A DNA stretch of 64,000 nt, from NCBI GenBank assembly GCA_965200355.1, contig OZ241351.1, positions 1,714,426-1,778,425 on the forward strand, written 5' to 3'. Below, one piece after another: positions 4,005 through 21,846 of the stretch. A program made the translations under genes and the position numbers. The notes below the pieces were generated by a model. It saw only the letters and a list, made by a program, of their open reading frames with translations. It was not told the DNA's origin and ran no database searches. Numbering within the stretch: position 1 is the first letter of the stretch; every line of letters begins with the position of its first letter. This DNA is from an uncultured Candidatus Binatia bacterium (GTDB taxonomy: Bacteria; Desulfobacterota; Binatia; Bin18).

Positions 4005-4009
4005 CCCCT

Positions 4010-4031
4010 AACCCCTCCCCAAGGGGTTTGG
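4010..4031 (+). terminator. possible hairpin (aacccc-tccccaa-ggggtt) after the LLM gene
   Basis: 6-bp stem, 7-nt loop, followed only by a short T stretch. Confidence 0.25.
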
Positions 4032-4092
4032 AATCAGCGCCCGAAACCGCTAGGGTAGGCAGCATACTCTCGGAAGGAATAGAGACACGGAT

Positions 4093-4935: not shown

Positions 4936-4962
4936 GCGCGCGGGGCAGGAAGGAGGCCAATC

Positions 4963-5784: not shown

Positions 5785-5806
5785 GCCCTGGTGACGCGCG
5801 TCTCGT

Positions 5807-6685
5807 ATGGCTGGCTGTAGACAATTGCTGTGGCTCCTGGCCGCCCTGCTGCCCGGTGTTTTTCTCTCCAGCCACATCTGTCTCGCCCAGCCCCAGGCCG
5901 AACCCCACGGCAGCCTGCTCATCCAGACTCCGGGAGAGCCGGCTCAGACCAGTGGGCTCTCGGCCAGAATCTACCCCCCGACATCCGAGACGCGCCTCAT
6001 CCAAACCCCCCTGAACACGCCGGTCTCGTTGCCCCCCGGATCCTACCGCGTTGAACTCGACATCCTGGGCGGCACGATTTCGCGCGAGCGCGTACTGGTT
6101 CGGTCCGGTCGAACCAGTACGGTCATGCTGAGCGAAGTCGCGGCCCTTCAGGTCAACGTCCTGGATAAAAACGGCCAGGACATCGGCCTCGGGGTCGAGG
6201 TCTATGACGGCGTATCCAACGAACTGCTCGGAGCGTTCCTGAGCGGAGAGATCATCCTGGCGCAACCGGGCCTGGTCGATGTCAAGGTCGCCGTTCCACC
6301 CCAGAGCCAGTGGTGGCGCGATATTGAGCTTTTGCGGGGCGGACTCCGGGAACTGACGTTGCGCGAGCGGGTGCGGGCTGAACTCCTGGTCCATCCCCGG
6401 CTGGCAGGGCAAGATGTCAGCCGGCTGACTCAGGTCATTATTTACGCCGCGGGGACGCAAAAAGAGATTGCCCGCAGCGAGCCCGGCCAGGAACATCGCT
6501 TTGTCCTGGAGACGGGCAGCTATGATGTGTTTGTGGCCAACCCAACGGGACGGGGCAAACCCTTTGTGCTGGAACGCGCGGAACTCCCGGATGAAAAAAC
6601 CGTCGAAAAGGAGGTCCACCTGGATGGACCGGTCAACCCGCCGGCGACACCGCCCCCAAGCCATTCGGAACCGCACGCCCTCTAA
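5807..6685 (+). CDS. hypothetical secreted protein (signal peptide)
   Basis: N-terminal MAGCRQLLWLLAALLPGVFLSSHICLA signal. Strongly GC-biased third positions in this frame, unlike the overlapping antisense ORF. Confidence 0.55.
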   Translation: MAGCRQLLWLLAALLPGVFLSSHICLAQPQAEPHGSLLIQTPGEPAQTSGLSARIYPPTSETRLIQTPLNTPVSLPPGSYRVELDILGGTISRERVLVRSGRTSTVMLSEVAALQVNVLDKNGQDIGLGVEVYDGVSNELLGAFLSGEIILAQPGLVDVKVAVPPQSQWWRDIELLRGGLRELTLRERVRAELLVHPRLAGQDVSRLTQVIIYAAGTQKEIARSEPGQEHRFVLETGSYDVFVANPTGRGKPFVLERAELPDEKTVEKEVHLDGPVNPPATPPPSHSEPHAL

Positions 6686-6703
6686 GCCGGGAGGAGCAAT
6701 GAT

Positions 6704-6958
6704 GTGAAGTCCGTCCATACCGAGCAGTACCGCGAGTTCCGAGAACTCATGGTCGCGGCAAGGAAAGCCACCGGCCTGACTCAGGCGGAACTCGCTAGGC
6801 AGTTAGGCAAACCACAGTCTTACGTGTCAAAATATGAACGTGGTGAGCGCCGCCTTGATGTCGTCGAGTTCCTGACACTCGCCGCCCTGCTGCATGTCGA
6901 CCCTCACGCCTGTATCACCAGACTGAGCGGCAAGTCTCCCAAGCGCGGGGCGTCATGA
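6704..6958 (+). CDS. XRE-family helix-turn-helix transcriptional regulator (84 aa)
   Basis: GTG start 7 nt after ggaggag. HTH_3 signature ...ATGLTQAELARQLGKPQSYVSKYERGER. Lower-GC islet. Confidence 0.7.
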   Translation: MKSVHTEQYREFRELMVAARKATGLTQAELARQLGKPQSYVSKYERGERRLDVVEFLTLAALLHVDPHACITRLSGKSPKRGAS

Positions 6959-7362
6959 AAACGACCAGCGATGTCATCCAAGCGGCCAGTGTCCACCTGG
7001 CAACGCTCACCGGCCATGTTTTCGACCTCCTCACCATTGCCAAACCACGCTCTCCCGAAGCCGCTGTCAACTTGGCGAAAGATGCCTTCTCCTATCAACC
7101 GACGCCAGAATATCAGGCCAAACTTCGAGAACTAATTGCGAGGTATCCGTACCGCCTGGACACAAATTTTGCCAAGATCAATAGAATCAACCAGGCCGAG
7201 ATTGCCGCATTCAAGCATAAGGTGCTCAACGCTGAGCACCACGGAAAAACAATACGAGCATGGGCGCGGCTCCTGGGACGGGGGAACGAAACCGAGCTTC
7301 AAAAAGCACTTGAGGACAACGTAGACATCAGAGCAGCGGATTCTGAAGACAGCGCTCAATAA
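6955..7362 (+). CDS. hypothetical protein (135 aa), translationally coupled to the XRE gene
   Basis: ATGA overlap with the upstream stop. No recognisable domain. Confidence 0.45.
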   Translation: MKTTSDVIQAASVHLATLTGHVFDLLTIAKPRSPEAAVNLAKDAFSYQPTPEYQAKLRELIARYPYRLDTNFAKINRINQAEIAAFKHKVLNAEHHGKTIRAWARLLGRGNETELQKALEDNVDIRAADSEDSAQ

Positions 7363-8420
7363 CGCGCTTCTGCCCAAAGTAGTAATACGTCGGATCAATC
7401 TCGCTGCCAAAGGCCCGCCGCTTGAGGTCATGCGCCGCAATACAGGTCGTAAATAAACCGCCAAAAGGCTCCCACACCACGTCGCCAGCCTCGGTTGAGG
7501 CTTCAATGATTCGTGAAATCAGGTCAAGCGGCTTCTGATTCAAGTGAAGCGCCTTGCCGTTTAAGCCAGGTGTTGTATATCGCTCCGCACCACGCAAAGC
7601 AGGGCGCTCCCATACATTTGTCACACCGTGCGGGCAGTGAAACTTAGAACGGTATCTTTTCCAAGCCTGCGCCGTTGCGGGTCTCTTCCCGTCTAACGAA
7701 AAATATGGTCGGCCTTCCGGTTGGCCATACTCATTCGCATAGCGCTGCATTTTCTCGAACATTTTCGGTGGCGGGTAGTACCACAGGTGGCTCTGGTCCA
7801 GATACTTCCGAACAGCAACGTCTTTGACGCCGCACGCCTCGTTCGCTCGCTTCAGGGGTAAGCCGGTTCGTTTCCATTCCCGATACAGCCATTCCTTCAG
7901 CACCAGCCCATTCACACGGGGCTCAAAAACGTACTGAATGCAGACTTCCGTCACAACGGGAAAACGTCGTATTTTCTTTGTATTCACATTCCCCGCGATA
8001 TGGCCCTTCCCCTTATTCCACACATTGGCGTTCACATAGCGCCACCCGTACTTTTCCAGGATGGGGTGAACAGCCGCCCAGCCGATTTCAGAATTCCAAA
8101 ACCACAGGGTCGTGTCAGGTTTCGCTTTTCGAGCCCAGGCCGCAATGTGTGGTTCCATACCACTCTGGTAAACCCAAATGGTCGGACGTGTCCCCCTCGA
8201 AACCGAGGACACCATACCCGCCGTCTGACACTATGGCGGTCGGCGCTTCCCACGAGTCGTACTGCTCAAGACTGTCGCCTAGCGATATACCGAGTCCATC
8301 CGACCAAATAGACGACTCCGGCGTAAAATCCTCTTTCAACGCTCGTCCTCGCCCTACCGTATTCGTCGGTGTTATTTTTTTCTTCCTTTTGGGCAGCAAA
8401 GGCATTGAGTGAGCTTTCAT
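7328..8420 (-). pseudogene. N4/N6 DNA methyltransferase-like gene (beta class, N6_N4_Mtase family), frameshifted with degenerate catalytic motifs
   Basis: The C-terminal ORF (7328-8215) carries ...LHLNQKPLDLISRIIE...VWEPFGGLFTT... matching the QKP / FxGxGTT region, but with GGLFTT in place of GSGTT. The N-terminal part lies in another frame (8115-8420) with IVSDGGYG where DPPY is expected. The frame switch is near 8150-8170. Confidence 0.55.
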
Positions 8421-8516
8421 GCCCCCATTATTAACCCATTTTAGGATATTGTCAACGCAGCCCCTCTCCTACTCATGTTGAGAGATGTCCCGTTGGTGTG
8501 AAATGAAGCCCCCCGC

Positions 8517-8762
8517 TTACCACATCAGGAGCGGAATGGCCGCGGCGAGGAGCAGCACGCTGAGGCAAATGGCAATGATACCCCAGAAGGTCGGCGGACG
8601 ACGGACCTCCAGGGTGGCCCCGCAGTGGACACACGCGGACAGAAACGAGCCGCCGGTCACATAAACACGGTTCCACTTATGACAGATAGCGCAGCGGGGG
8701 TGAGGGCGGGCACGAAAAAGTGCAGCAAGCTGAGACACGATTTCTTTCCTCTCTTCTTTCAT
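8517..8762 (-). CDS. small zinc-ribbon membrane protein (hypothetical)
   Basis: CxxC...CxxC (CAICH...CVHCG) followed by one TM helix. Confidence 0.4.
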   Translation of the reverse strand: MKEERKEIVSQLAALFRARPHPRCAICHKWNRVYVTGGSFLSACVHCGATLEVRRPPTFWGIIAICLSVLLLAAAIPLLMW

Positions 8763-8803
8763 CCTAACGGGGGGACAGAGGCCGCGTCAACCGGGCAGTC
8801 TGC

Positions 8804-9613
8804 CTACCAACGATTCTTGGCATGATGTCGAGCGGTGAGGCGCGGGGCCACAAGTTCCAAAAGCTGGGTGTGCAGCCGGCCATTGCTGGCAACCACGCCC
8901 TGCAAGAGCGTGGTCGGCTGATTAAAGCGGACCGGCTTCCCGCTGAGGGTCGTGACTCGTCCCCCGGCTTCCTCGACGAGGAGCGTGCCGGCGCAAATAT
9001 CCCACTCGTTCTTGGGCCTCAGTGTAAACGAGGCGTCGGCCTCGCCACTGGCGAGACACGCCAGCTTGTAGGCAATGCTGCCCAGAGGGCGGGCACGAAA
9101 AAGCGAGGTGAAGTCTTTCCACTCCCCCCGTTTAGTCTCCGAGCGACTGGAGAGAATAGTCGCCTCGGCCAAACGCGACGTTGCAGGCACGCGCAAGGGG
9201 CGGCTCCCGCACCACGCCCCTTGTCCGCGGACCGCCCAGAAGAGCTGGTCCAGGCTGGGATGATAGACCACACCGAGAATCGGCCAGCCAGCTTCAATGA
9301 GTCCGATAGAGACCGCAAATTCCGGGATTTTCTGAATGAACTCCTGGGTCCCGTCCATCGGGTCAACCACCCAGACGCGGCGCGTGGTCAGCCGCGCGGG
9401 CGAATCGACCGTCTCTTCCGACAGCCAGCCATAGTCAGGGAAATTCGCGTGGAGCATGGTGTGGATCTTCCGGTTGGCCTCCCGGTCGGCACGTGTGACC
9501 GGACTGTTATCTCCGCTTTTATACTCCACTGTGTAGTTGGTCTCGTAGATGGTGCGGATGATGTCTCCCGCGGCGCGCGCGGCCGCAATGGCAAGGCTTT
9601 TCTCTTTTTCCAT
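8804..9613 (-). CDS. inositol monophosphatase family / 3'(2'),5'-bisphosphate nucleotidase (CysQ-like)
   Basis: IMPase metal-binding motifs (WVVDPMDGTQEF, ...WDICAG...). Confidence 0.8.
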   Translation of the reverse strand: MEKEKSLAIAAARAAGDIIRTIYETNYTVEYKSGDNSPVTRADREANRKIHTMLHANFPDYGWLSEETVDSPARLTTRRVWVVDPMDGTQEFIQKIPEFAVSIGLIEAGWPILGVVYHPSLDQLFWAVRGQGAWCGSRPLRVPATSRLAEATILSSRSETKRGEWKDFTSLFRARPLGSIAYKLACLASGEADASFTLRPKNEWDICAGTLLVEEAGGRVTTLSGKPVRFNQPTTLLQGVVASNGRLHTQLLELVAPRLTARHHAKNRW

Positions 9614-10591
9614 TTACTGTCCCAACACCTGAGCAAAGATCAGCGGGGCGACAATCGAGGCGTCCGATTCAATCAGGTAGCGCGGGGTGTCCACGCCAAG
9701 TTTCCCCCAGGTAATTTTTTCGTTGGGAACCGCCCCGGAATAGGAGCCATAACTGGTCGTGGAATCACTAATCTGACAAAAATAGCCCCATAGCGGGGTG
9801 TGGGTGCGTTTCATGTCCTGGATCAGCATCGGCACCGCACAGATAGCAAAATCTCCGGCAATCCCCCCACCAATCTGAAAAAACCCGATGGAGTGCTGCG
9901 CCGAGACCGTACTATACCAATCGGCCAGATACGTCATGTATTCAACGCCGTGCCGCACGGTATGGACATTCTTCATCAGGCCAGTCATGCAATAGCTGGC
10001 GTACACATTCCCGCAGGTGGAATCCTCCCAGCCGGGCGCAACAATGAGCAGGTCTTTTTCCATAGCGGCATGGACCCAGGAGGCTTTGGGATCAATCTGA
10101 TAATAGGGTTGCAGCATACCGGTCCGCAGGATTTCGTAGAAGGTCTCGTGTGGAAAGGCCCGCCGGCCGGCGTGGTCGGCCCGCATCCACAATTCCTGGA
10201 GGACGCCTTCGACCCGACGCATAGCCTCAAACTCGGGAATGCAGGTATCGGTCACGCGGTTCATATGCCGGTTGAGCAGGCCCTGCTCATCCTGAGGCGT
10301 CAAGTCCCGATAGTGTGGCACCTGCTCATAGTGCTCATGCGCGACCAGATTAAAAATATCTTCTTCCAGATTCGCGCCCGTGCAGGAGATGGCGTGAATG
10401 CAGTCAGCGCGGATCATTTCCGCCAGGGAGAGGCCGAGTTCGGCCGTACTCATAGCGCCGGCCATTGCCAGCAACATCTTGCCGCCCCGGTCGAGATGCT
10501 GCCGATAGGCGGTGGCCGCCTCGACAACGGTGGCGGCATTAAAATGCCGAAAGTGGTGGTGCAGAAAGTCGGTGATGGGTTGACGGCTCAT
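9614..10591 (-). CDS. deoxyhypusine synthase family protein (homospermidine-synthase-like)
   Basis: Full-length similarity to the DHS family (NAD-binding ...SCTGANLEEDIF..., ...GGGIAGDF...). Adjacent to the CysQ-like gene. Confidence 0.75.
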   Translation of the reverse strand: MSRQPITDFLHHHFRHFNAATVVEAATAYRQHLDRGGKMLLAMAGAMSTAELGLSLAEMIRADCIHAISCTGANLEEDIFNLVAHEHYEQVPHYRDLTPQDEQGLLNRHMNRVTDTCIPEFEAMRRVEGVLQELWMRADHAGRRAFPHETFYEILRTGMLQPYYQIDPKASWVHAAMEKDLLIVAPGWEDSTCGNVYASYCMTGLMKNVHTVRHGVEYMTYLADWYSTVSAQHSIGFFQIGGGIAGDFAICAVPMLIQDMKRTHTPLWGYFCQISDSTTSYGSYSGAVPNEKITWGKLGVDTPRYLIESDASIVAPLIFAQVLGQ

Positions 10592-10743
10592 CCTTTGCTC
10601 CTTAGCAATTTTGACGGCTTGCGGGCTTGCTGCTGACTATTGCAAGCATTTCTGCGGAATTGGGGGGTGTTTTTGGTGCGTTTTCAGACCAGAGGGCACC
10701 CCTTTTTTTGGGGAGAATGGGTGAGATTTCAGGCGGTTAGCTC

Positions 10744-11163
10744 CTATTGATTGCTCTCAGACGTGTTCTCAGTCAACTCCGCCGCCTCCCCCCGAAGGTC
10801 CACGTCCGGCAGAATCGACTGCGGCTTGAACGTCACCCGATGGTGATACACGCTCACGTCCGCCGTCTCTAACTGCTCGGCAAAATACGTCACATTGTCC
10901 GACAAGCCCAAAAAATGCTTCACAAAGGCATTCTGGGCCACCCGACACACCACTTCCAGTTGTTCGCGCTGGTGGTCAATAGCGCACTTCCCCTCGATAG
11001 TCAGCATGTAGGCGTCGGTTATGCCGTTATAGAACACAATGCGCCGGTCGATCTCAAAATTATCCGCGGCCTTGGACAGATTCGAGGATGCTATCCTTGC
11101 ATCGTCCATGCAACCAGACAGCAGGGCAAAAAGGCCAAGTAGGATGATTCTCATTTTCTTCAT
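10744..11163 (-). CDS. lipoprotein, hypothetical
   Basis: MKKMRIILLGLFALLSGC signal with lipobox. Lower GC than the surroundings. Confidence 0.6.
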   Translation of the reverse strand: MKKMRIILLGLFALLSGCMDDARIASSNLSKAADNFEIDRRIVFYNGITDAYMLTIEGKCAIDHQREQLEVVCRVAQNAFVKHFLGLSDNVTYFAEQLETADVSVYHHRVTFKPQSILPDVDLRGEAAELTENTSESNQ

Positions 11164-11298
11164 ATCTATTCCTCCTTTTCCGGCACCTCATCCCGATACC
11201 CCGAGCATTCAGCGGATTTACAGATGAGACAGGGCGCACGGACTATATCGAGACCTGGGCAATAGACAATATCTGTACTCTACCCACGGGCATGCTCC

Positions 11299-12969
11299 TT
11301 ACCTCTCAGCCAGCGCTTTCTGAATAGCTTTCAGTTCAGCGTTGGTGATGCTCCATATTTTGGCCGCTGCCGCGTCTATTTCAGCCTCTAATGCTGCCAC
11401 CTTGTCCGTGCCGTTTTGTTTTGCCGTGACATGGCACCGCCGAGAAAGACCGGCGACGCGATTGTGGAGCTTCTCCGTCTTTTTGAACTGAGGAATGGCT
11501 ATGTTCTTCATAATGTGTGGTGACGGATGCAGAACAATATAGGACGCAGCGGCTACATAAGCAGGTGAAGAATTGAGCATTCCGGCGACGAAATAAGCCT
11601 CATCCTCGCTACCGCAAGAAACGGCCACGATTGTATGGTCGGGTAAAGAGGGCTTCACCTTCTCGACCGTTGAGGGACCGGATACGCTCGCACGGACGGA
11701 GTGTCCCACTTCCGGCCAGAGGACTTTCCATTCCTTCATCGTGTAACGTCCGACATTATACATAGAGTAAAAAGGATCACTCGGCTTAAAGTACTGACGA
11801 TAGCCGGAGCGACCGCGCAGGGTGCCATGCTCAGGCTTTTTGGGATCGCCTTCAAACCGCTTCAGGTACGAATATGTTTTCGGCCAGCGCCGCTTCATTG
11901 CGGCTTCGGGAATACCCTTCCGTGTCTCCGGGTCTTGGGCCAGAATGATGTGTGTTGAAGGTGCTGCGTGCCAACGCTGCACGTCTCTTCCGCGTAGCAA
12001 GGGATAGACCAAGGCCGGCTCGATGACGGCCTGTACGTGTTTGACCGGAATTTTCCCAACGTTATGCAGGTTCTCGATCAAGAGTTCCCCGCTGGGAAGT
12101 GTATCTATGATGTTGACCCAGTACACACCATTCAGCCACGTACAGCAGCCAGCATAGGCTTGGTAATCGCTCGGCCCGATGACTTTCTGAAGACCGGGCA
12201 GGGCTGGCGTCGGGGCGGTGAGCCACGGGGACGAGTCCTTTGAAGCCACAACAGGCATGGCTCCTATTTTGTGTTGGGTGGTCGCAGTACGCACGCCGGC
12301 TAACGATTCGTCTTGGGCAAGGCGCGACGGCCCAGCCCACGTCGTATACCGCACAGGATACGTGAAGGGGCGCGTCGTTTTTTCGCAGACAAAGACCGCG
12401 GTCCGATTGGTCGCCCCTTCAAAAACCTGCGTGGCACTCAGATCATGAACAATACGGGGCTTCAGTCGCCACGTTGTTTTTGGTTCTGTCCGGTCGTATC
12501 TGAGTCTACGGAAACCATCGCCCGCGCCTTGGGTCTTGAAGACGCTCTGCGTAATGACGAAACCAAGCCGCCCGCCTTCTTCGAGATAGTTGTCCACGGA
12601 GGAGTAGGTAAACAACATGGAGATGTCCTTCTTGCCGCCGCCCAAGCGACCTGCGGACCCCGATAGCGTGAACAGATTGTATCCCTCCCAGAGGGGTTTC
12701 ATGGCATCGCGGTAGCCGTCGGGCAGGTTCTCCCAATTCACCCAGGGCGGGTTGCCAGCCACATAATCCACTTTCCCGATGAAGAGGGGCGCAAAGGCAT
12801 TTTTGATGATCCGCGCCCAAATACCGTTTTGATTGCTGGCGTCAAGCTGTTGGAGTTTGCCATACAGGTTCTTGTGGAGCGTGGCATCGGTCGTCGGTAA
12901 GGATTCGGCCTCACAGCGTTCGAGGAATTCTTCGGGCGAATAATCATCACGAATGCAAGACTCAATCAC
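11299..12969 (-). CDS. Type IIG restriction-modification enzyme, C-terminal portion (N6-adenine MTase motif IV NPPW plus target-recognition region)
   Basis: ...DYVAGNPPW... near the N-terminus, about 500 aa of TRD-like sequence after it. GTG start overlaps the upstream stop (GTGA). Confidence 0.6.
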   Translation of the reverse strand: MIESCIRDDYSPEEFLERCEAESLPTTDATLHKNLYGKLQQLDASNQNGIWARIIKNAFAPLFIGKVDYVAGNPPWVNWENLPDGYRDAMKPLWEGYNLFTLSGSAGRLGGGKKDISMLFTYSSVDNYLEEGGRLGFVITQSVFKTQGAGDGFRRLRYDRTEPKTTWRLKPRIVHDLSATQVFEGATNRTAVFVCEKTTRPFTYPVRYTTWAGPSRLAQDESLAGVRTATTQHKIGAMPVVASKDSSPWLTAPTPALPGLQKVIGPSDYQAYAGCCTWLNGVYWVNIIDTLPSGELLIENLHNVGKIPVKHVQAVIEPALVYPLLRGRDVQRWHAAPSTHIILAQDPETRKGIPEAAMKRRWPKTYSYLKRFEGDPKKPEHGTLRGRSGYRQYFKPSDPFYSMYNVGRYTMKEWKVLWPEVGHSVRASVSGPSTVEKVKPSLPDHTIVAVSCGSEDEAYFVAGMLNSSPAYVAAASYIVLHPSPHIMKNIAIPQFKKTEKLHNRVAGLSRRCHVTAKQNGTDKVAALEAEIDAAAAKIWSITNAELKAIQKALAER

Positions 12970-14564
12970 ATCGGCATAGCGCCCGATATGCTCTTGGCTC
13001 TCTCAGTCATTTCAGCCGGGATATTGAAATCGCCGGCGCTGGTCTTGATCTGTCGCGTATTGCTCATGCCTCCCGTGAACACGTCGCCGTATGCTGAGGG
13101 GGTCATAATCGAATCGCAGAGATAGACGGGCAATTCGACGGTATCAGCATGACGCAGCAAATCGCGGAGGGCCATCAGGTAGTTCGTCCGGGCGGCCATG
13201 ACCGCCAGCGGATTGAGGTCGAAACCAATAATGTTGCGCAGAATTTTCCGCAGTAGTTCGTCTTCGCCAAAGCCACAGGCGTAGCGGTGCTCGTCATACC
13301 ATGTTTTGACACGGTTCAGGGCCATGACGAGAAAGCTGCCGGAACCGCAGGCGGGGTCGAGCAGGCGTTTGTCCGGGTTGCCGTCGTAGCCGAGTTCGTC
13401 AAGGACCAGCTCGGCCAGCCAGTCGGGCGTGTAGTACTCGCCCAAGTCGTGCCGGACGGACTTGGGAAAAAGTTGCTGGTAGAGCTGTTTAAGCAAATCG
13501 CGCGATTCTGCCGGGTCAACACTGAGGGTGGTCGAATCGAACCGGTCCAGCGACCGGGTGAGGCCACGGACGGCCTGGGCGCAGTCCTCGTTCCAGGCGT
13601 CCAGATACCAGGAGAAGAGGTCGCCTTCGAGAAAATTGCGAATGCCGAGCTGTGACCAGATGCCCCCTTGTTCGAGATTGCGCAGTTCCTCCCGTAATTT
13701 GGCCGGAGTTGGCGCAGAAACGAGTCTTTTGAGGGCTGAGGTTCCAAGAGGAGAAAAGGCCGAGACAATCTCGGCGGCCAGCATTTTCATGAACAGGGCG
13801 TAGTAGGTATGAACGGCAAACAGGAGGGCAGACGGAGAGGGGTGAGACACCTGATAGTGATCGGCCAGTTGCCTGACTTTGGGGTTCTGACCATGAATGT
13901 CATAGCCACACACTTCACCGAAAAGAATCTGCCATTGACGGAAGAACGTCTGCGCCTTCGGGCTGTCTGTCGTGCGGATGAGGTCATGGAGAAGCCGCAC
14001 GCCGTGCTGTGCGCTCTGGGCCTCGGAGCCGAAAGAATCCGTCAGATTCTCGGGGGTAAAGGAAAGGCCCCGCGCGCCCAGGGAGACGAGCGCCCGCAGC
14101 AGGCGTTGGACCGTATACGGCGTGACAGGTTGGGCGTCCTCAGCCTCAAGCTTTGCCCCGCGGGTGCGGACAAAGACCATGCGCGCGCCGTCGCACCCAA
14201 TCCCGAGAATGCGTTCCATGCCGACGTGCTCTTCTGCCTGTAAGTCTCGGAAGCGGCTCTTGATCTGGGTAACGACGGCCTTGAATCCCCGGGCGTTTCT
14301 CTGCTCCGTGATTCTGTCCGACCCCTTGGGGTCTTTGTACTCAATGACCACCCCGCCGTATTTGGAATCAATGCGCCCGCCGGCAAGACCGTATTCATGC
14401 CGGCCCTGGACAGTCAGCCCCGCTTTCTTGATGAACTCGTCAATGAGCTTATTGCACTCGTGGCGAATATCTTCCTCTGAGCCGGCCCATGCGACCGCCT
14501 GCACCATCTGATCGGCCATGAGCTTGGCGTGGTGCGCAATCAAGGCTTCGAGATTCTGACTCAT
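12966..14564 (-). CDS. Type IIG restriction-modification enzyme, N-terminal portion (PD-ExK nuclease motif plus MTase motif I)
   Basis: GGRIDSKYGGVVIEYK (D...EYK nuclease motif) near the N-terminus. ...LLDPACGSGSFLV (AdoMet motif I). The ORF stops about 180 aa before the NPPW found in the next ORF. Confidence 0.6.
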   Translation of the reverse strand: MSQNLEALIAHHAKLMADQMVQAVAWAGSEEDIRHECNKLIDEFIKKAGLTVQGRHEYGLAGGRIDSKYGGVVIEYKDPKGSDRITEQRNARGFKAVVTQIKSRFRDLQAEEHVGMERILGIGCDGARMVFVRTRGAKLEAEDAQPVTPYTVQRLLRALVSLGARGLSFTPENLTDSFGSEAQSAQHGVRLLHDLIRTTDSPKAQTFFRQWQILFGEVCGYDIHGQNPKVRQLADHYQVSHPSPSALLFAVHTYYALFMKMLAAEIVSAFSPLGTSALKRLVSAPTPAKLREELRNLEQGGIWSQLGIRNFLEGDLFSWYLDAWNEDCAQAVRGLTRSLDRFDSTTLSVDPAESRDLLKQLYQQLFPKSVRHDLGEYYTPDWLAELVLDELGYDGNPDKRLLDPACGSGSFLVMALNRVKTWYDEHRYACGFGEDELLRKILRNIIGFDLNPLAVMAARTNYLMALRDLLRHADTVELPVYLCDSIMTPSAYGDVFTGGMSNTRQIKTSAGDFNIPAEMTERAKSISGAMPM

Positions 14565-15595
14565 GTCAGGCTGCCCTTTCCAGGGGGAGCCGGCTGTATC
14601 AGCGCTTGCAGCGCGTGGCCGGTTGGTGCGCCCCGCAGCGCCCGGCCTCTGGAGTCAGGCGTCAGCGCTTGGGTCACTAACTGCTGGAAATCCACCTTGC
14701 GCTCAGCCCAGTCCCGGACGGCGGCAAGGCGGTCGAAGAGCGCCAGACGCACGGCGTAGGCGTCGGTCTCGTCCGGCTGCCCGGTGGCGCTGTCCGGTGG
14801 GGCGTAGGGTCGCGCCTCGGTCAGAAACCGCGCCACCTCAGCCGGGACGTGGGCCGAGAGGTCTGTGGCCCCTCCCCCGGTCTGCCGTATTGCGGTTGAG
14901 GAGAGACCGGCCACAGGCTCGGGCAGGGCCAGGAAATGGATCGCGTCCCGGTAGGGCTGGTTGGCGGGGCGCTGTAACAACTCGTCAAACGCGCGCCGGG
15001 CCATATCGCCCCGGTTGGCAACAACAAGCGAGGTCAGCGCAAAAAGCTGTTCCAGGGCGGCCTCTCGGTCCTGGTAGTAGCGCGCGTCCAGAATCTGCAC
15101 CAGCTTGTCCATACCCACCATAAAAAACAGTCCGACCTGCGCGTCAAAGAGGGCCTGAAATGCCTGGGCTTGCTCAAAATAGAGCCCACGGTTGACCAGG
15201 GCCACGCCGAGCTGTGGCTGCTGTTGGACATGCAGGAGGAGCAACAAGAGGCGGTCCTCCAGACTCATCCCGCTGACCTGTTCCTTATCGACTGTGACCT
15301 TGGCCATCGTGTATAAGAGTTGGTCCAGTTGGAATACGCGGCCGGCGTGCTGGGCGAGCGCGCTGTGGGCCAGGGTGAGCGGATTGAAGGACCCGCACAA
15401 GACGCCCAGCCGTTGCGGCCGCGGGTGCGGTGGTGCGGACAACAGACAGGCCGCCGGCGGCCCGGCACTATCGAGAGACTGAAGACGGTCCCGCAGCGCA
15501 AACAAGCGGGACAAGTCGTAAAATGCGGGTGACATAGCTGACCCGACAGCATACACGACTTCGACCCACTGCGCAGGCCGAGCCGGAGCCAGCAC
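14561..15595 (-). CDS. NadD-like nucleotidyltransferase (nicotinate/nicotinamide-nucleotide adenylyltransferase family) with N- and C-terminal extensions
   Basis: GVLCGSFNPLTLAH (HxGH-type motif with Gly-to-Ala), ...FMVGMDKL..., LSSTAIRQ (ISxT.IR motif). ATGA overlap with the RM ORF start. Confidence 0.55.
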   Translation of the reverse strand: MLAPARPAQWVEVVYAVGSAMSPAFYDLSRLFALRDRLQSLDSAGPPAACLLSAPPHPRPQRLGVLCGSFNPLTLAHSALAQHAGRVFQLDQLLYTMAKVTVDKEQVSGMSLEDRLLLLLLHVQQQPQLGVALVNRGLYFEQAQAFQALFDAQVGLFFMVGMDKLVQILDARYYQDREAALEQLFALTSLVVANRGDMARRAFDELLQRPANQPYRDAIHFLALPEPVAGLSSTAIRQTGGGATDLSAHVPAEVARFLTEARPYAPPDSATGQPDETDAYAVRLALFDRLAAVRDWAERKVDFQQLVTQALTPDSRGRALRGAPTGHALQALIQPAPPGKGSLT

Positions 15596-15681
15596 CCGCG
15601 CGGCCTGTTTTTCTGACAGGACTCGGTTTGCCCGATCCTCCAGGATTGACCGTGAATTTCAGCCCATGCTACCCTCTGGCT

Positions 15682-17487
15682 ATGCGTTTCCCTGCCTTTG
15701 TCGTGAGCGCTTGCCTGCTTTGCGCCCTCATCCCGCTGGCCTCGTGCAGCACGGCTCGCCCCACCCTAGCCCCGGTGCGGAGCGCCCCCCCAGCCGTTCC
15801 CGCTCAGACCAGACCCGCGCCGGCGCTGCCCATTCCGGGCACGCCAGTGGTGCTCGCCCCTGAAGATCGGGCCCTCGGGCATTTCTTCAAAAGCCAAGTC
15901 GCCCTGCATGAGGGCGACGCTGAGACCGCGCTCAGCGAGCTTGAACACGCCGTCTCTCACGACCCTCACACGCCCTTCCTGCGTCTGCGGCTGGCCACTA
16001 TGGCCTTACGCCAGGGCAAGCTGGCCGAGGCCCTGGAACATTGCCAGCAGGTCGTGGCCAGCGAGCCGGACAATGTGACGGCCCAGCGTCTCCTGGCCGG
16101 CCTGCTCTCCTCGACCGGCCAGGAAAACGAAGCCGCTCAGGTCTACGAATCCCTGCTGACGCAGGGTTCTGACGACCAGGAACCGTATCTCTACCTGAGC
16201 GTGCTGTATGCTAAGCAAGAGCGATTTGAGGACGCGATTGGCGTGCTCAAAAGACTGGTCAGCCGTCACCCCCAATCGGTCCTGGGCTATTATTATCTCG
16301 GCCAAACGCACGCCGCGGCCCAGCGGTTTGAGCAGGCGGAAACCTATTATCACGAGGCGCTCAGCCTCAATCCGCAGTCAGAACTGGTCCTGCTCGACTT
16401 CGCGCTCCTGTATGAGCTGCAAAAGAAAAACACCCAGGCCAGAGAGATGTATGAGCAAGCCCTGAGCCTCAACCCGCGCAGTGAGCGGGCGCGGGAGCGG
16501 CTCGGCCGTTTCTATCTGGGCCAGCAGAAGCTTGATGATGCGCTGGACCAGTTTCAGGCACTTGAAAAAATAGAAGCCGACCCGCAGGAGACGCGACTCA
16601 AAATCAGCCTGATCTATCGAGAAAAAGGCGATTACGAAAAGGCCGCCACCGCCCTCAACCTCGTTTTAGCCGCCCAGCCCGAGAATCATCGCGCCCGCTA
16701 CTTTCTCGGCGTCGTGTATACAGAGGCCGACCAGGACACCCGGGCCGCGGTCGAACTCCTGCATATTCCTCGGCAGGCCGAGTATTTTGCCGACGCGCGC
16801 GTCTACTTGAGCTATATCTACCAGCGCCAGGGCAATATCGCCCAAGCCATCACCGCGGTGGAACAGGCCCTTAGCGTGAAAGAGGACGACCCGGACCTGA
16901 TTGGCTTTCTGGCTTCCCTCCATCGCGACAATAATGACCGGGCCAAAGCTGTCGAACTCCTTGAGCACCTCATCGAGGTCGCCCCGGACAACGATCAATA
17001 CCACTTCACGCTCGGAGCGGTCTACGACGAACTCAAACAAAAAGAGCGCTGCATCCAGCATATGCAGAAAGCCATTGCCCTGAATCCCGAGAATGACGCC
17101 GCGCTGAACTACCTGGGCTATACCTGGGCAGAGCAGGGCGTGCATTTAGATGAGGCTGAGCAACTGATACTCCGGGCGCTGGCCATCGAACCCAACGATG
17201 GTTTTTATATTGATAGTCTGGGTTGGGTGTATTATCAGCGCGGCGAGTATAGGGAAGCCATTCAGCACCTCGAACGGGCGGTGGAACTGGTTGATGCTGA
17301 CCCCACCTTGATTGAACATCTGGGGGATGCGTATACCAAAATCGGCCGCACCGCCGATGCCGCCCGCCTCTACCAGGAAGCCATCAAGAACACCTCCGAA
17401 GAAGCCCAACTTGAGCGTTTGCGGACCAAGCTGAACGCCTTGTCTCCGGTGGGCATACACAAGACGAGCGGCAGTGACCTCCAGTAG
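15682..17487 (+). CDS. TPR-repeat lipoprotein
   Basis: MRFPAFVVSACLLCALIPLASC signal with lipobox, followed by about 14 TPR-like repeats. Confidence 0.75.
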   Translation: MRFPAFVVSACLLCALIPLASCSTARPTLAPVRSAPPAVPAQTRPAPALPIPGTPVVLAPEDRALGHFFKSQVALHEGDAETALSELEHAVSHDPHTPFLRLRLATMALRQGKLAEALEHCQQVVASEPDNVTAQRLLAGLLSSTGQENEAAQVYESLLTQGSDDQEPYLYLSVLYAKQERFEDAIGVLKRLVSRHPQSVLGYYYLGQTHAAAQRFEQAETYYHEALSLNPQSELVLLDFALLYELQKKNTQAREMYEQALSLNPRSERARERLGRFYLGQQKLDDALDQFQALEKIEADPQETRLKISLIYREKGDYEKAATALNLVLAAQPENHRARYFLGVVYTEADQDTRAAVELLHIPRQAEYFADARVYLSYIYQRQGNIAQAITAVEQALSVKEDDPDLIGFLASLHRDNNDRAKAVELLEHLIEVAPDNDQYHFTLGAVYDELKQKERCIQHMQKAIALNPENDAALNYLGYTWAEQGVHLDEAEQLILRALAIEPNDGFYIDSLGWVYYQRGEYREAIQHLERAVELVDADPTLIEHLGDAYTKIGRTADAARLYQEAIKNTSEEAQLERLRTKLNALSPVGIHKTSGSDLQ

Positions 17488-18340
17488 CAGCTTGACGCGC
17501 TTCCCACCGTGGCGACCCTCGTCTCTCTCGTTGGCCTGGCTCGTGGTTCTTGCCGGTCTCGTCGTCTGGGGCAGTGGCTGTGCGGCGCGCCGGCCGGCGC
17601 CGCCTGTGCCTGCGCCTCCAGCCGCCCTCCCGTCTCCCCAAGAATTACTGGCCCCGCTCCAGGCCCGGCAGCAGGCTTTCAGCGGCCTGCGCGGCCTGGC
17701 CAAGGTTTCGTACCGGGATACGCACGAAAAGGCGTCTGCAACCCACGCTGTTGCCCTGGCCGCCCCAGACCGCTTTCGCCTCGAGTTGTTCTCACTCCTT
17801 GGTGTCGCCGCTATTCATACCTGTGATGGGCAACGCCTGACCGCCTATTTCCCGCGTGCTCAGGTCCTCTACCGAGGCGTTGCCAGCCCGTTCAATATCG
17901 CCCGTTTCACCCAGGTGCTGCTCTCGGCACGCGAGGTCACCCGCCTGCTGATGGGACTGCCGCCCTTTCTGGTAGACGGTGGGGGCACGCCGGTACGCCG
18001 TGAGCCGGCCGGTGCCTACCGGCTCGATTTTCAGCGCGCGGATGGCAGTCTGGCCACGCTCCGGTTCGACGCGGCCACACAGCGCCTCACCGGCTGGTCC
18101 GTCCGGGATGCGACCCAGACGCTCCAGGCCCAAGGCGAGTTAGGCGACTATCGGCAGGTCCAGGACCGCTTTTTCCCGTTTGCCATCAGTCTGTCCGACG
18201 CCCAGGGAGCCCAGCAGGTCTCGCTCGTCTATCAGGAAGTCTCGGTCGTTCCTGACCCATCCGCGTCGCTCTTTCGTCTGGAGACGCCGGCGGGGGTCGA
18301 AGAGATTGATATTGACGCCTATCGGCTGCACAGCCCGTAA
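17474..18340 (+). CDS. LolB-like / DUF4292-type outer-membrane lipoprotein (start uncertain)
   Basis: ...LAGLVVWGSGC lipobox. LolA/LolB-like half-barrel architecture. Overlaps the end of the TPR gene. Confidence 0.5.
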   Translation: MTSSSSLTRFPPWRPSSLSLAWLVVLAGLVVWGSGCAARRPAPPVPAPPAALPSPQELLAPLQARQQAFSGLRGLAKVSYRDTHEKASATHAVALAAPDRFRLELFSLLGVAAIHTCDGQRLTAYFPRAQVLYRGVASPFNIARFTQVLLSAREVTRLLMGLPPFLVDGGGTPVRREPAGAYRLDFQRADGSLATLRFDAATQRLTGWSVRDATQTLQAQGELGDYRQVQDRFFPFAISLSDAQGAQQVSLVYQEVSVVPDPSASLFRLETPAGVEEIDIDAYRLHSP

Positions 18341-18397
18341 AGCGCGCCGGCAGGTCTCAACGGACTGGTCTACAGAGGACCCCTGTCCTCTTGCGGG

Positions 18398-18849
18398 TCA
18401 GTAGGCGGTCCCGTCCCTTTTGAAGACCACGGCAAAGCCGCGCCGGGCCAAGGAAAACCGACGGTCCGCGGATTGGGCGTAGCGTCCGAACTGGCCTTGT
18501 TTCTGCTGCTGGACCCAATCCGGGAAGGAGTCTTCGATATTCATATGCGCGACTTGCTGAGGGGGCAGTAAGACGACGGCATCGGCGCCTACCTCACAGG
18601 CTTTGTCGCGAATCAGGGCGTTCATACTTTCCAGCCCGTCAATTTCGTTCCCATAGGAGACGATATGGGCAAAGACATCATACGGCTGGGCCGGGGGAGA
18701 GGTCAGCATATTCATGGGGCAATCGACCGGGCGCGCTTCCGGGTAGATAGGCGCAATCCGCTCTTCAATGGCAACCGGTTTTGCCGGGCGCAAAAAACAG
18801 CCGGTGAGAACAATCAGCCCAACACTGAACCACCACAATTGTGTACGCA
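18398..18849 (-). CDS. lipoprotein, hypothetical
   Basis: GTG at 18849 after ggggg. ...WWFSVGLIVLTGC lipobox. Confidence 0.45.
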
Positions 18850-18905
18850 CGTTTTGCCCCCTTGAATGAATAAGCCGGCCACTCTCTTTTCGTCTCGGAT
18901 ATCTT

Positions 18906-20072
18906 TTAGTCTCGGAGCAGCTTGCGGGCAATCACCCACCGATGGACCTCGGTCGGTCCTTCAAAAATCCGCATCGGCCGCAGGCGACGATAGATAAACT
19001 CCAGCGGCATTTCCTTGGACATGCCCATCCCGCCGTGCATCTGCATGGCCCGGTCGGCCACCCGGGTGGCCATTTCCGTGGCAAACACCTTGAGCATGGA
19101 AGCCTCCTGGCGCACATCGTCTCCCTGGTCAAATGTCCAGGCTCCGTGATGCACCATCAGCCGTGAGGCATGAATATCGGTCGCCGAGTCAGCAATGAAC
19201 CACTGAATGGCCTGGCGGTCGGCCAGCTTCTGACCAAAAGTCACACGTTGTTTGGCATACGCAACCATCATGTCCAGGCAGCGCTGGGCCAGCCCTACAC
19301 ACCAGCTCCCCATTTCCAGACGGCGGACGGTCAGGCGGAGTTGCATGGGCGCAAAGCCCTGTCCCACTTCGCCCAGCACCTGAGAATCTGGGAGGGTCAG
19401 GTCTTCAAACACCAGCTCCCAGGGCGCGTGTCCGCCGATGACCGGAATCTGGCGTTGCAGCACAAGGCCAGGGGTGCCTTTATCCACCAGAAAGGCTGTA
19501 ATCCCACCGCGCGCCCCTTTGCCCTTTTCCGTCACCGCCATGACAATAATAAAGTCGGCAATATGGGCGCGTGATATCCAGATTTTTCGCCCGTTGAGCA
19601 CCCACTGGTCCCCTCTTTTGACGGCTGAGGTTTGCATCCCGGCCGGGTCTGAGCCAGCGCCGGGTTCGGAAATGGCAATGGCCGAATGCGCCTTGCCCTG
19701 GGCATACGGGAGGAGGTATTTCTCTCGCTGCTCCGGTGTACAGGTCTGCATCAGCATGTGCAGATTGGGCGCGTCGGGCGGAAAGGTAAACGGCGTAACG
19801 GTCTTATACAGTTCCTCGGTCGCCAGACATTTCGGCAACGCCCCCAGGTTCAACCCGCCAAATTCCTCGGGCACGTCCAGCCCCCACAGGCCGGCTTCCT
19901 GGGCAACGGCCAGCAGACGTTCTTCGGCCTCGGTCGGCACCAGGTCTTCGCCCGTCATGCCTTGCGTATCGCGCTCCAGGACCGTGGTCTCCAGCGGGAG
20001 TAGTTCCTGACGCACGAAGCGGCGCACCGTCTCCTGCAACAGGCGGTATTCTTCGGGCAGCGCAAAATCCAT
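18906..20072 (-). CDS. acyl-CoA dehydrogenase
   Basis: ATG 20072 five nt after aaggagg. ACAD N-, middle and C-terminal domain motifs. Confidence 0.85.
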   Translation of the reverse strand: MDFALPEEYRLLQETVRRFVRQELLPLETTVLERDTQGMTGEDLVPTEAEERLLAVAQEAGLWGLDVPEEFGGLNLGALPKCLATEELYKTVTPFTFPPDAPNLHMLMQTCTPEQREKYLLPYAQGKAHSAIAISEPGAGSDPAGMQTSAVKRGDQWVLNGRKIWISRAHIADFIIVMAVTEKGKGARGGITAFLVDKGTPGLVLQRQIPVIGGHAPWELVFEDLTLPDSQVLGEVGQGFAPMQLRLTVRRLEMGSWCVGLAQRCLDMMVAYAKQRVTFGQKLADRQAIQWFIADSATDIHASRLMVHHGAWTFDQGDDVRQEASMLKVFATEMATRVADRAMQMHGGMGMSKEMPLEFIYRRLRPMRIFEGPTEVHRWVIARKLLRD

Positions 20073-20432
20073 ACAGCCTCCTTTCCGCACCAGACTGCCG
20101 GACAGCCTAGCAGGATCGGACGCAGAAAGGGTAGGGGTGATGGGGTATGGGTTCAGTTTCCCAGCGGTGGTCCTTGTGGACCGCCGGCCCCCTCTCCCTA
20201 ACCCTCTCCCTCCAGGGGAGAGGGAATGCGTCTCGACCGGGGCCTGCTCGACGGGGAGGGAATGCGCCTCGTAGGGGCAACCCCCCTGTGGTTGCCCAGC
20301 TTGCTGACGGCGGAAGAAACTGCCAGCATCAGGATGGGCGGGATGTGAGGATGAGCAGGATGGGAAAAAAGAAATCCAGTATATCCCTTAATCCTGAGCA
20401 TCCTGATTCCGACAGGGGGAAGAGAGCGTCAC

Positions 20433-20510
20433 ATGCTACAAGACGCATTGACCTACCAGATTATCGGCTGCGCGATGAAGGTGCCTCGTGAGAAAGCCAT
20501 GAAAGATTAT
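20433..20510 (+). pseudogene. N-terminal remnant of a GxxExxY-family (PD-ExK-like) gene
   Basis: MLQDALTYQIIGCAMKVPRE... resembles the conserved N-terminus (...IIGCAMEVH...) of that family, then runs into low-complexity sequence. Confidence 0.3.
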
Positions 20511-20517
20511 GGCCTAC

Positions 20518-21825: not shown

Positions 21826-21846
21826 CGTGCGCGTCCGGCTCCCCAA

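What the first reader, a model, noticed from the sequence alone, without database searches (positions are those of the whole stretch)
11299..14564. Type IIG restriction-modification enzyme split into two ORFs inside the methyltransferase domain
The upstream ORF (12966-14564) carries a PD-ExK nuclease motif (RIDSKYGGVVIEYK) and the AdoMet-binding motif I (LLDPACGSGSFLV), then terminates. The downstream ORF (11299-12969) begins about 60 aa before motif IV (DYVAGNPPW) and continues into a long target-recognition region. Together they are about 1090 aa, the size of an MmeI/Eco57I-like fused RM protein.

The split falls between motifs I and IV of one Rossmann fold. The two ORFs overlap as ...ATGTGA.../GTG. 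Both frames are open only within 12969-13001, so a single-base indel there would fuse them.

Three explanations are possible: inactivation (pseudogene), phase-variable or assembly indel, or an unusual naturally split two-subunit enzyme (the GTGA overlap resembles translational coupling). The locus has lower GC than its flanks and is followed by a lipoprotein gene.
Basis: partly seen in the sequence, partly recalled or inferred. Interest (0 to 1): 0.55.

Follow-up and report, generated by a model that had tools for sequence, protein, structure and literature searches.

The report
Frameshifted Type IIG restriction-modification gene
The two ORFs are the halves of one ordinary single-chain restriction-modification enzyme gene, broken by a 2-base (AG) insertion; this is a recent inactivating mutation or an assembly error, not a naturally split enzyme.

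Summary
ORFs 12966-14564(-) and 11299-12969(-) match consecutive parts of one Type IIG profile, PADLOC PDLC03630: positions 14-526 and 535-1096 of 1100.

More than 100 close homologues (61-84% identity) are single chains of about 1085 aa. Protein and DNA alignments with three syntenic orthologues place the break exactly. The window reads ACTGAGAGAGCC (GAGAGAG at 12998-13004, minus strand) where orthologues have ACT--GAGAGCC. This is a 2-nt AG duplication. Removing it restores a gap-free 1087-aa protein reading ...IPAEMTESQEHIGRYADVIESC...

No homologue is split at this point. Of 70 complete loci, 9 are broken, each at a different site. C-terminal fragments in the database start at scattered positions.

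The repeat is only (GA)3, there is no slippery heptamer, and there is no Shine-Dalgarno sequence before the GTG. Phase variation, programmed frameshifting and a coupled two-subunit enzyme are therefore all unlikely.

The restored protein shows no decay: it differs at 2 of 370 highly conserved columns, against a family mean of 7. The lesion is therefore very recent or an assembly artefact.

The helicase genes that follow this gene in relatives are missing from the window.

The finding is ordinary and of low interest.

The parts
12966..14564 (-). 5' fragment of the Type IIG gene: PD-(D/E)xK nuclease, helical connector, and MTase motifs I-III. Residues 1-521 are homologous to the family. The last 11 codons (RAKSISGAMPM*) are out-of-frame read-through.
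   Evidence: profile positions 14-526; matches to homologues end at query residue 519-526
14334..14375 (-). PD-(D/E)xK nuclease motif RIDSKYGGVVIEYK. D66, E75 and K77 are invariant in the family.
13326..13364 (-). MTase motif I, the AdoMet-binding loop LLDPACGSGSFLV.
12998..13004 (-). Frameshift site: GAGAGAG where the L002 orthologue has GAGAG. It is a 2-nt (AG/GA) insertion relative to all three syntenic orthologues. Deleting it restores ...AEMTESQEHIGRYADVIESC... with no gap against the family.
11299..13002 (-). 3' fragment of the Type IIG gene in the -1 frame: helical insert, motif IV, the rest of the MTase, the target-recognition domain and the C-terminal helices. Homology starts at the first codon after the in-frame TGA (13002), 11 codons before the GTG at 12969 that the ORF finder picks.
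   Evidence: (profile positions 535-1096)
12742..12768 (-). MTase motif IV, DYVAGNPPW.
14561..15595 (-). Upstream NadD-like nucleotidyltransferase ORF with an ATGA overlap onto the IIG start. It is fused in frame to the IIG gene in four of five syntenic relatives.
14583..14587 (-). C5 run in the segment where the window is 1 nt shorter than the relatives. One extra C would fuse the NadD-like ORF to the IIG ORF.
10604..11292 (-). A 690-bp segment, containing lipoprotein ORF 10744-11163, that replaces the 3.8-kb block of relatives (198-aa ORF plus SNF2 helicase) between the IIG gene and the deoxyhypusine-synthase-like gene.

Best explanation
This is a standard single-chain Type IIG restriction-modification gene of about 1087 aa. 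Its layout is an N-terminal PD-(D/E)xK nuclease, a gamma-class N6-adenine methyltransferase and a C-terminal target-recognition domain.

The gene has suffered a 2-nt AG duplication in a short GAGAG run at 12998-13004 on the minus strand. The reading frame shifts after residue 521 and translation stops 11 codons later.

The product would carry the nuclease and the AdoMet-binding half of the Rossmann fold, but lack the catalytic NPPW motif and the DNA-recognition domain. The downstream ORF has no ribosome-binding site. As written, the locus therefore cannot make an active restriction or modification enzyme.

The lesion is the only defect in an otherwise perfectly conserved gene, so it is evolutionarily very recent. 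It fits a locus in decay, because the accessory genes that follow the gene in relatives (a 198-aa ORF and an SNF2 helicase) have already been lost.

Shown here: gene identity, exact lesion, absence of a conserved split, absence of a repeat tract, and loss of the neighbouring genes. Inferred: that the indel is in the DNA and not only in the assembly, and that both activities are lost.
For: - **Consecutive profile match.** The two ORFs match consecutive parts of PADLOC REase_MTase_IIG PDLC03630, positions 14-526 and 535-1096 of 1100.
- **Single-chain homologues.** There were 4917 homologues. Most of the best 120 are single chains of about 1085 aa covering 100% of the query, at 61-84% identity.
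- **Junction alignment.** The family reads IPAEVTENREHIGRYADTLESC. The window's upstream frame reads IPAEMTE-RAKSISGAMPM*, and its downstream frame, read back, gives ESQEHIGRYADVIESC.
- **DNA alignment.** Three syntenic orthologues (78-91% nt identity across 4005-22496) show a 2-nt gap opposite the window's GAGAGAG.
- **Other genes intact.** All other real genes in the 18.5-kb syntenic block map in one frame. That block contains 98 homopolymers of 5 nt or more and 49 dinucleotide x3 runs.
- **Disruption is common in the family.** 9 of 70 complete loci are disabled, each at a different site.
- **Accessory genes lost.** The 198-aa ORF and SNF2 helicase present in L001-L003 are replaced in the window. 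2 of 3 other loci with only helicase remnants also have a broken IIG gene (Fisher p=0.04).
- **Experimental precedent.** Frameshifted Type IIG genes in H. pylori (JHP1272, HP1353-HP1354) are inactive until the frameshift is repaired (PMC3936762).
Against: - The restored protein shows no relaxed constraint. It deviates at 2 of 370 columns that are at least 95% conserved, against a family mean of 7.0. All catalytic motifs are intact. This is equally compatible with an assembly error or with a still-functional gene.
- The contig is 3.83 Mb, and the closest relatives are long-read MAGs. Small indels in low-complexity runs are a known error type of such assemblies.
- A second small indel in the same operon, at a C5 run at 14583-14587, also sits in a low-complexity context.
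- No reads were available.
Confidence: 0.55

Rival explanations
1. Assembly or consensus artefact. The organism carries the intact gene (GAGAG), and the extra AG was introduced by read errors or polishing, or the consensus picked a minority variant. The real product would then be a normal active single-chain Type IIG enzyme, possibly fused to the upstream NadD-like domain.
For: - The gene is otherwise pristine: 2 deviations in 370 conserved columns, and all motifs intact.
- The window comes from a 3.83-Mb contig, and its nearest relatives are long-read metagenome-assembled chromosomes.
- Both frame-breaking differences in this operon lie in low-complexity runs, C5 and (GA)3. Correcting both yields one 1431-aa ORF that matches the 1412-1418-aa fused ORFs of four relatives.
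Against: - A 2-nt insertion in a 3-unit dinucleotide run is not a typical systematic error.
- None of the other 98 homopolymers (5 nt or more) or 48 other dinucleotide x3 runs in the 18.5-kb syntenic block breaks a gene.
- The neighbouring helicase genes are truly absent, which is a structural difference and not an error.
- 13% of family loci carry real lesions, including nonsense substitutions.
Confidence: 0.33
2. Functional split enzyme. The two ORFs are both translated, the second by termination-reinitiation at the GTGA overlap, and the two polypeptides assemble into an active heterodimeric RM enzyme.
For: - The stop and start overlap (ATGTGA/GTG) in a form that can support coupling.
- The break falls in a turn between helices of an inserted subdomain, between strands beta3 and beta4 of the MTase fold, which is a structurally plausible split point.
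- There is no sequence decay.
- Naturally split m5C MTases exist, for example M.AquI (own knowledge).
Against: - No homologue is split here. Among 70 complete loci, broken copies differ in site, fragment N-termini scatter from residue 116 to 737, and the short representative that was checked (P0383) simply runs off the end of its contig.
- The split arises from a 2-nt insertion that adds 11 junk codons and removes 10 conserved residues (SQEHIGRYAD) from both products.
- There is no Shine-Dalgarno sequence before the GTG, whereas neighbouring genes have AAGGAGG or AAGGAG.
- The GTG is just a Val codon in a variable position of the family.
Confidence: 0.05
3. Phase variation or recoding. Either the (GA)n run is a contingency tract that switches the enzyme on and off, or the ribosome or polymerase shifts frame here to make the full-length protein.
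For: - The indel is one repeat unit of a dinucleotide run.
- Phase-variable Type IIG and Type III enzymes are known: Cj0031 with a homopolymer tract (PMC4889913) and MmyCI with 12 AG repeats (PMC3498834).
Against: - The tract has only 3 units, or 2 in the intact form, against 12 AG units in MmyCI. Tandem Repeats Finder finds nothing at the site.
- Orthologues do not conserve the run. L001 and L003 read GCC--GGGAACC there.
- There is no X XXY YYZ slippery heptamer and no long homopolymer in 13002-12969.
Confidence: 0.04

Closest known systems
Single-chain Type IIG RM enzymes of REBASE as modelled by PADLOC REase_MTase_IIG PDLC03630 (and PDLC03580, PDLC03625)
   Same: End-to-end profile match when the two ORFs are joined. 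Same order of N-terminal PD-ExK nuclease, gamma-class N6A MTase (motifs I then IV) and C-terminal TRD. Same length of about 1090 aa.
   Different: In the window the gene is interrupted by a 2-nt insertion. No characterised member or recognition sequence could be named with these tools.
Solved Type IIG/IIL enzymes BpuSI (3S1S), DrdV (7LO5), MmeI (5HR4); BREX PglX/BrxX (8C45, 9EWZ); solitary MTases CamA (7LNI) and M.BseCI (7QW5)
   Same: The AF2 model of orthologue P0003 matches them by fold: Foldseek E=1e-9 to 8e-17, probability 1.0. The MTase-plus-TRD module is most like CamA and M.BseCI, and the whole chain is most like PglX, BpuSI and DrdV.
   Different: Only 11-15% sequence identity. By sequence only weak hits reach PDB, E=2e-5. 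The Pfam MmeI_Mtase hit is below the gathering score, 20.6 against 27. There are no BREX partner genes. The family has a roughly 115-aa hairpin-plus-helical insert between motifs III and IV.
Frameshift-inactivated and phase-variable Type IIG genes of Helicobacter pylori (JHP1272, HP1353-HP1354) and Campylobacter jejuni (Cj0031)
   Same: A Type IIG gene annotated as two ORFs because of a small indel. The H. pylori genes were shown to be inactive until the frame was repaired (PMC3936762; PMC4889913).
   Different: Those indels sit in long homopolymer tracts that switch reversibly. Here the context is a 3-unit dinucleotide run with no contingency tract.
Naturally split DNA methyltransferases (M.AquI alpha/beta, M.EcoHK31I) - own knowledge, not tested here
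   Same: A methyltransferase fold encoded as two polypeptides.
   Different: Those are m5C enzymes whose split is conserved and functional. Here the split is unique to this one sequence and is created by a frameshift that destroys 10 conserved residues.

Membership tests
Type IIG restriction-modification enzyme (single-chain REase-MTase-TRD) | N-terminal PD-(D/E)xK nuclease motif | tested here: met
   D66...E75-x-K77 in RIDSKYGGVVIEYK. These residues are invariant in 21- and 69-sequence alignments.
Type IIG restriction-modification enzyme (single-chain REase-MTase-TRD) | Gamma-class N6-adenine MTase motifs in the order I (DPACGSG) then IV (NPPW) | tested here: met
   Pfam N6_Mtase E=8e-10 and Eco57I E=2e-7, both above gathering score. 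Motif coordinates are given.
Type IIG restriction-modification enzyme (single-chain REase-MTase-TRD) | Full-length match to a family profile built from known Type IIG enzymes | tested here: met
   PDLC03630 positions 14-526 (E=1.7e-134) plus 535-1096 (E=1.1e-166) of 1100.
Type IIG restriction-modification enzyme (single-chain REase-MTase-TRD) | All domains encoded in one uninterrupted polypeptide | tested here: not met
   The frame shifts after residue 521. It is met again if 2 nt are removed. The locus is therefore a disrupted member, not a different architecture.
Type IIG restriction-modification enzyme (single-chain REase-MTase-TRD) | Cleavage at a fixed distance from an asymmetric site, and m6A methylation of that site | not testable with these tools
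   Needs enzyme assays or methylome data.
MmeI family / Type IIL | Significant match to the MmeI-specific Pfam domains (MmeI_Mtase and partners) | tested here: not met
   MmeI_Mtase scores 20.6 bits against a gathering score of 27, and no other MmeI domain is hit. MmeI ranks only 49th by fold.
BREX PglX methyltransferase | Score above the NCBIfam PglX cut-offs, and BREX partner genes (PglZ, BrxC) in the locus | tested here: not met
   The best hit is 47 bits against a cut-off of 400. The gene lists of L001-L003 show no PglZ or BrxC.
Naturally split (two-subunit) RM enzyme | Homologues encoded as two genes split at the same position | tested here: not met
   0 of 70 complete loci. Fragment N-termini scatter from residue 116 to 737, and only the window's own ORF starts at 532. 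The near-half-length representative that was checked (P0383) ends at its contig end. The nearest case, L085, is an independent frameshift 15-30 residues away.
Phase-variable RM gene (simple-sequence contingency locus) | A long homopolymer or multi-unit repeat tract at the frameshift site | tested here: not met
   Only (GA)3. Tandem Repeats Finder reports no array at 12960-13010. The run is not conserved in orthologues.
Programmed ribosomal frameshift | Slippery heptamer X XXY YYZ in the region open in both frames | tested here: not met
   The sequence GAGAGCCAAGAGCATATCGGGCGCTATGCCGATGTGA contains none.

The most novel reading that the evidence does not exclude
The two-ORF form is not dead. 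Termination-reinitiation at the GTGA overlap yields both halves, which reassemble across the helical insert between MTase motifs III and IV into an active heterodimeric Type IIG enzyme. That would be a freshly born, naturally split N6A RM enzyme.
Probability: 0.04. Interest if true: 0.45.

Novelty: already known. Interest (0 to 1): 0.12.

Why it matters
It matters little beyond annotation. The locus should be annotated as one frameshifted Type IIG gene (a pseudogene or a sequence to be verified), not as two genes or a new split enzyme.

It is one more example of the frequent, site-random inactivation of RM genes; about 13% of loci in this family are broken.

The context is more interesting than the frameshift itself. 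In relatives the gene is fused in frame to a NadD-like nucleotidyltransferase. In about a third of loci across many phyla it is followed by a RapA/BrxHII-like SNF2 helicase. Those associations, not the split, may deserve a separate look.

Tried and rejected
- **Exact-sequence look-ups.** Look-ups of both window ORFs and of P0121 found no record. No sister assembly of the same strain could be compared.
- **Metagenome scan.** A scan for either allele of the junction (pattern with N{2,4}) found nothing.
- **Natural split.** I looked for one in the 120 best hits, 83 loci, 112 C-terminal fragments and 150 representatives at 50% identity. None was found at this site. P0383 runs off its contig end. 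P0123 is a 2x-coverage plasmid concatemer. P0219/L085 is an independent frameshift 15-30 residues downstream.
- **Phase variation.** Rejected: no tract.
- **Programmed frameshift.** Rejected: no slippery site.
- **BREX, BREX-related (BR) or DISARM membership.** Rejected for the IIG gene. Scores are far below the cut-offs and the partner genes are absent. BR systems require a DUF499 ATPase and a DUF1156 MTase (PMC12839542).
- **1-nt deletion instead of 2-nt insertion.** Rejected, because it would need an extra residue that no homologue has.
- **Low-GC island argument.** Not convincing, because comparable dips occur elsewhere in the window.
- **Protein search with the lipoprotein.** It showed only that the family is huge and highly conserved, and did not bear on the finding.
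Full report
**1. Observation**

The ORF listing confirms two minus-strand ORFs: 12966-14564 (532 aa, ATG start) and 11299-12969 (556 aa, GTG start). The junction reads ...GGC GCT ATG CCG ATG TGA in the upstream frame and GAT GTG ATT GAG in the downstream frame.

- RIDSKYGGVVIEYK, residues 64-77, at 14334-14375.
- LLDPACGSGSFLV, residues 401-413, at 13326-13364.
- DYVAGNPPW, residues 68-76 of the second ORF, at 12742-12768.

Pfam places N6_Mtase (E=8e-10) on the first ORF and Eco57I (E=2e-7) on the second.

The PADLOC model REase_MTase_IIG PDLC03630 has 1100 positions. The first ORF matches positions 14-526 (E=1.7e-134) and the second matches 535-1096 (E=1.1e-166).

**2. What the intact gene looks like**

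A search with the concatenated protein returned 4917 homologues. Most of the best 120 are single chains of about 1085 aa that cover 100% of the query at 61-84% identity.

The family is unusually conserved, with a mean column identity of 65-72%. D66, E75 and K77 of the nuclease motif are invariant, as are DPxCGSG of motif I and NPPW of motif IV.

An AlphaFold2 model of the orthologue P0003 (pLDDT 77, pTM 0.70) matches several solved structures by fold:
- The MTase-TRD module resembles CamA and M.BseCI.
- The whole chain resembles PglX/BrxX, BpuSI, DrdV, MmeI and LlaBIII.

By sequence only weak PDB hits are found. This is an ordinary, uncharacterised lineage within the Type IIG / PglX-like superfamily. 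It does not belong to the MmeI family proper (Pfam MmeI_Mtase is below threshold) or to BREX (47 bits against a cut-off of 400).

**3. The lesion**

At the junction the family reads ...SAGDFNIPAEVTENREHIGRYADTLESCIRD.... The window's upstream frame follows this as far as ...IPAEMTE and then reads RAKSISGAMPM*. The downstream frame, read back to its preceding stop, gives ESQEHIGRYADVIESCIRD. The shift is therefore right after residue 521.

Three syntenic orthologous loci were fetched: L001, L002 and L003. They share 78-91% nucleotide identity with the window across 4005-22496.

The DNA alignment shows a 2-nt gap in all three opposite the window's ACTGAGAGAGCCAAG (13007 to 12993, minus strand). 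L002 reads ACT--GAGAGCCGCG at that point.

Removing one AG restores AEMTESQEHIGRYADVIESC with no gap against any homologue. A 1-nt deletion model would need a residue that no homologue has. The event is thus a duplication of one unit in a short run, GAGAG becoming GAGAGAG at 12998-13004.

tblastn of the restored 1087-aa protein against the window gives residues 1-526 in frame -3 (99.2%) and 521-1087 in frame -2 (100%). In an exhaustive HMMER search, matches of the upstream ORF to 150 cluster representatives end at query residue 519-526. This confirms that the last roughly 10 codons are out-of-frame read-through.

**4. Is it a conserved natural split?**

No. A scan of GTDB genomes gave 80 further loci, from Binatia, Planctomycetota, Latescibacterota, Acidobacteriota, Omnitrophota, Poribacteria and others.

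Of 70 loci that cover the whole gene, 61 are uninterrupted once L083's stops, which lie at its natural C-terminal end, are discounted. Nine are broken, each at a different place:

| Lesion | Position in the restored protein |
|---|---|
| In-frame stops | 272, 287, 704, 814 |
| Frame changes | ~270, ~735, ~775, ~700/~1000 |
| 1.9-kb insertion | 689-698 |

None is at residue 522.

A search with the downstream ORF alone returned many truncated proteins. Their N-termini map to positions scattered from 116 to 737. They cluster only at conserved Met/Val codons (335, 370, 414, 598-601, 649-651) where gene callers restart. Only the window's own product (P0121) starts at 532.

Spot checks gave the following:
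- P0383 runs off its contig.
- P0123 sits on a 2x-coverage plasmid concatemer whose gene is in three pieces.
- P0219/L085 is an independent frameshift 15-30 residues further downstream.

**5. Other mechanisms**

- Phase variation needs a contingency tract. The run here is (GA)3, Tandem Repeats Finder reports nothing at the site, and orthologues do not conserve the run. Known phase-variable enzymes use long tracts: homopolymers in H. pylori and C. jejuni Type IIG genes, and 12 AG units in MmyCI.
- No X XXY YYZ slippery heptamer lies in the 34-nt region open in both frames.
- Translational coupling is not supported. The GTG is simply the Val codon at a variable family position (D-T/A/K/M/V-L/I). 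The 22 nt before it (GCATATCGGGCGCTATGCCGAT) contain no Shine-Dalgarno sequence. Neighbouring genes have AAGGAGG (lipoprotein), AAGGAG (deoxyhypusine-synthase-like gene) or GGAAAGGG (IIG start).
- The split would also remove the conserved residues SQEHIGRYAD from both products and add 11 junk residues to the first.

Structurally, the break lies in a turn between helices H518-521 and H524-539. These belong to a hairpin-plus-helical insert between strand beta3 (motif III) and strand beta4 (motif IV). Fragment complementation is not physically absurd, but nothing supports it.

**6. Real mutation or artefact?**

The restored protein deviates from the family at only 2 of 370 columns that are at least 95% conserved. 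The 101 full-length homologues deviate at a mean of 7.0 and a median of 6, and 97 of them deviate at least as often as the window. There is thus no relaxed constraint, and the lesion is very recent or not real.

Points in favour of a real lesion:
- All other real genes in the 18.5-kb syntenic block are in one frame, despite 98 homopolymers of 5 nt or more and 49 dinucleotide x3 runs.
- A 2-nt insertion is not a typical systematic error.
- 13% of family loci are broken, some by nonsense substitutions.
- The locus shows a true structural loss. The 198-aa ORF and the 989-aa SNF2 helicase that follow the gene in L001-L003 are replaced in the window by 690 bp carrying a lipoprotein gene.
- Among other loci, 2 of the 3 that retain only helicase remnants also have a broken IIG gene, against 7 of 67 otherwise (Fisher p=0.04).

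Points in favour of an artefact:
- The window comes from a 3.83-Mb contig.
- Its relatives are long-read metagenome assemblies.
- A second frame-changing difference lies nearby, in the segment that holds a C5 run (14583-14587). Correcting both yields a single 1431-aa ORF like those of four relatives.

Without reads this cannot be settled. My estimates are about 0.55 for a real lesion, 0.33 for an artefact, 0.05 for a functional split and 0.04 for phase variation or recoding.

**7. Mechanistic consequence (inferred)**

In Type IIG enzymes the nuclease depends on the MTase-TRD module of the same chain for DNA recognition. Methyl transfer needs both the AdoMet loop (motif I) and the NPPW loop (motif IV).

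The first product would have the nuclease and motifs I-III but no NPPW and no TRD. The second, if made at all, would lack AdoMet binding. Both restriction and modification should be lost together, which is a safe way for a cell to lose an RM system.

Experimental precedent exists.

**8. Verdict**

This is a correctly observed but ordinary feature: a frameshifted copy of a known kind of gene. Its interest is low.

The surrounding biology may be worth a separate look. That includes the in-frame NadD-like-IIG fusions in relatives, and the recurrent pairing with a RapA/BrxHII/DrmD-like SNF2 helicase in 21 of 59 loci across phyla.

Noticed in passing
window 14561-15595 (-); L002 10001-14257, L003 10001-14245, L009 9020-13252, L021 5877-10121: The ORF upstream of the IIG gene is a NadD-like nucleotidyltransferase. 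It hits Pfam CTP_transf_like and NCBIfam NadD TIGR00482 (E=1.7e-16, below cut-off), and carries the motifs GSFNPLTLAH and SSTAIR. In four of five syntenic Binatia relatives it is one continuous ORF with the IIG gene (1412-1418 aa). It is separated by a TAG in L001, and in the window by a 1-nt shorter segment containing the C5 run at 14583-14587. A NadD-like domain fused to an RM enzyme is unusual.
   Followed up: partly
L001 13350-16915 and equivalents in L002, L003, L008, L009, L015, L050 and about 15 more distant loci; absent from the window: In 21 of 59 loci with enough flank, across many phyla, the IIG gene is directly followed by an SNF2 helicase of about 990 aa. The helicase resembles BrxHII, DrmD and RapA (PADLOC BrxHI|BrxHII E=8e-112; NCBIfam DrmD E=1e-94 and RapA E=3e-63, all below cut-offs). 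In Binatia and Latescibacterota a 198-aa ORF with weak STM3845/retron-effector and NDT hits lies between the two genes. This looks like a conserved IIG-plus-helicase module that fits none of BREX, BR or DISARM.
   Followed up: partly
window 10604-11292, ORF 10744-11163 (-): A 139-aa lipoprotein (lipobox LSGC, strong Shine-Dalgarno AAGGAGG) of Pfam family Phage_VG64 (E=9e-51) occupies the place of the helicase block. The family has more than 7700 homologues, nearly all about 141 aa long and about 70% identical, which is striking conservation for a protein of unknown function.
   Followed up: partly
L004 (stop at residue 287 plus helicase remnants), L030, L021, L037, L040 (1.9-kb insertion at residues 689-698), L006, L051, L057, L063, L077: About 13% of complete loci of this IIG family carry disabling lesions at different sites. 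Loci with degraded helicase genes tend also to have a broken IIG gene (2 of 3 against 7 of 67).
   Followed up: yes
P0036, P0064, P0081; L009 C-terminal half: Some close relatives are about 81-85% identical in the N-terminal half but much more divergent in the C-terminal half: 61% in L009, and only 46% query coverage for P0036, P0064 and P0081. This suggests exchange of target-recognition domains within the family.
   Followed up: no
L002 18189-19167: The deoxyhypusine-synthase-like gene of relative L002 is called as two ORFs (275 + 66 aa, both Pfam DS). Small frame-breaking indels therefore also occur in housekeeping genes of related metagenome assemblies, which bears on the artefact question.
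   Followed up: no
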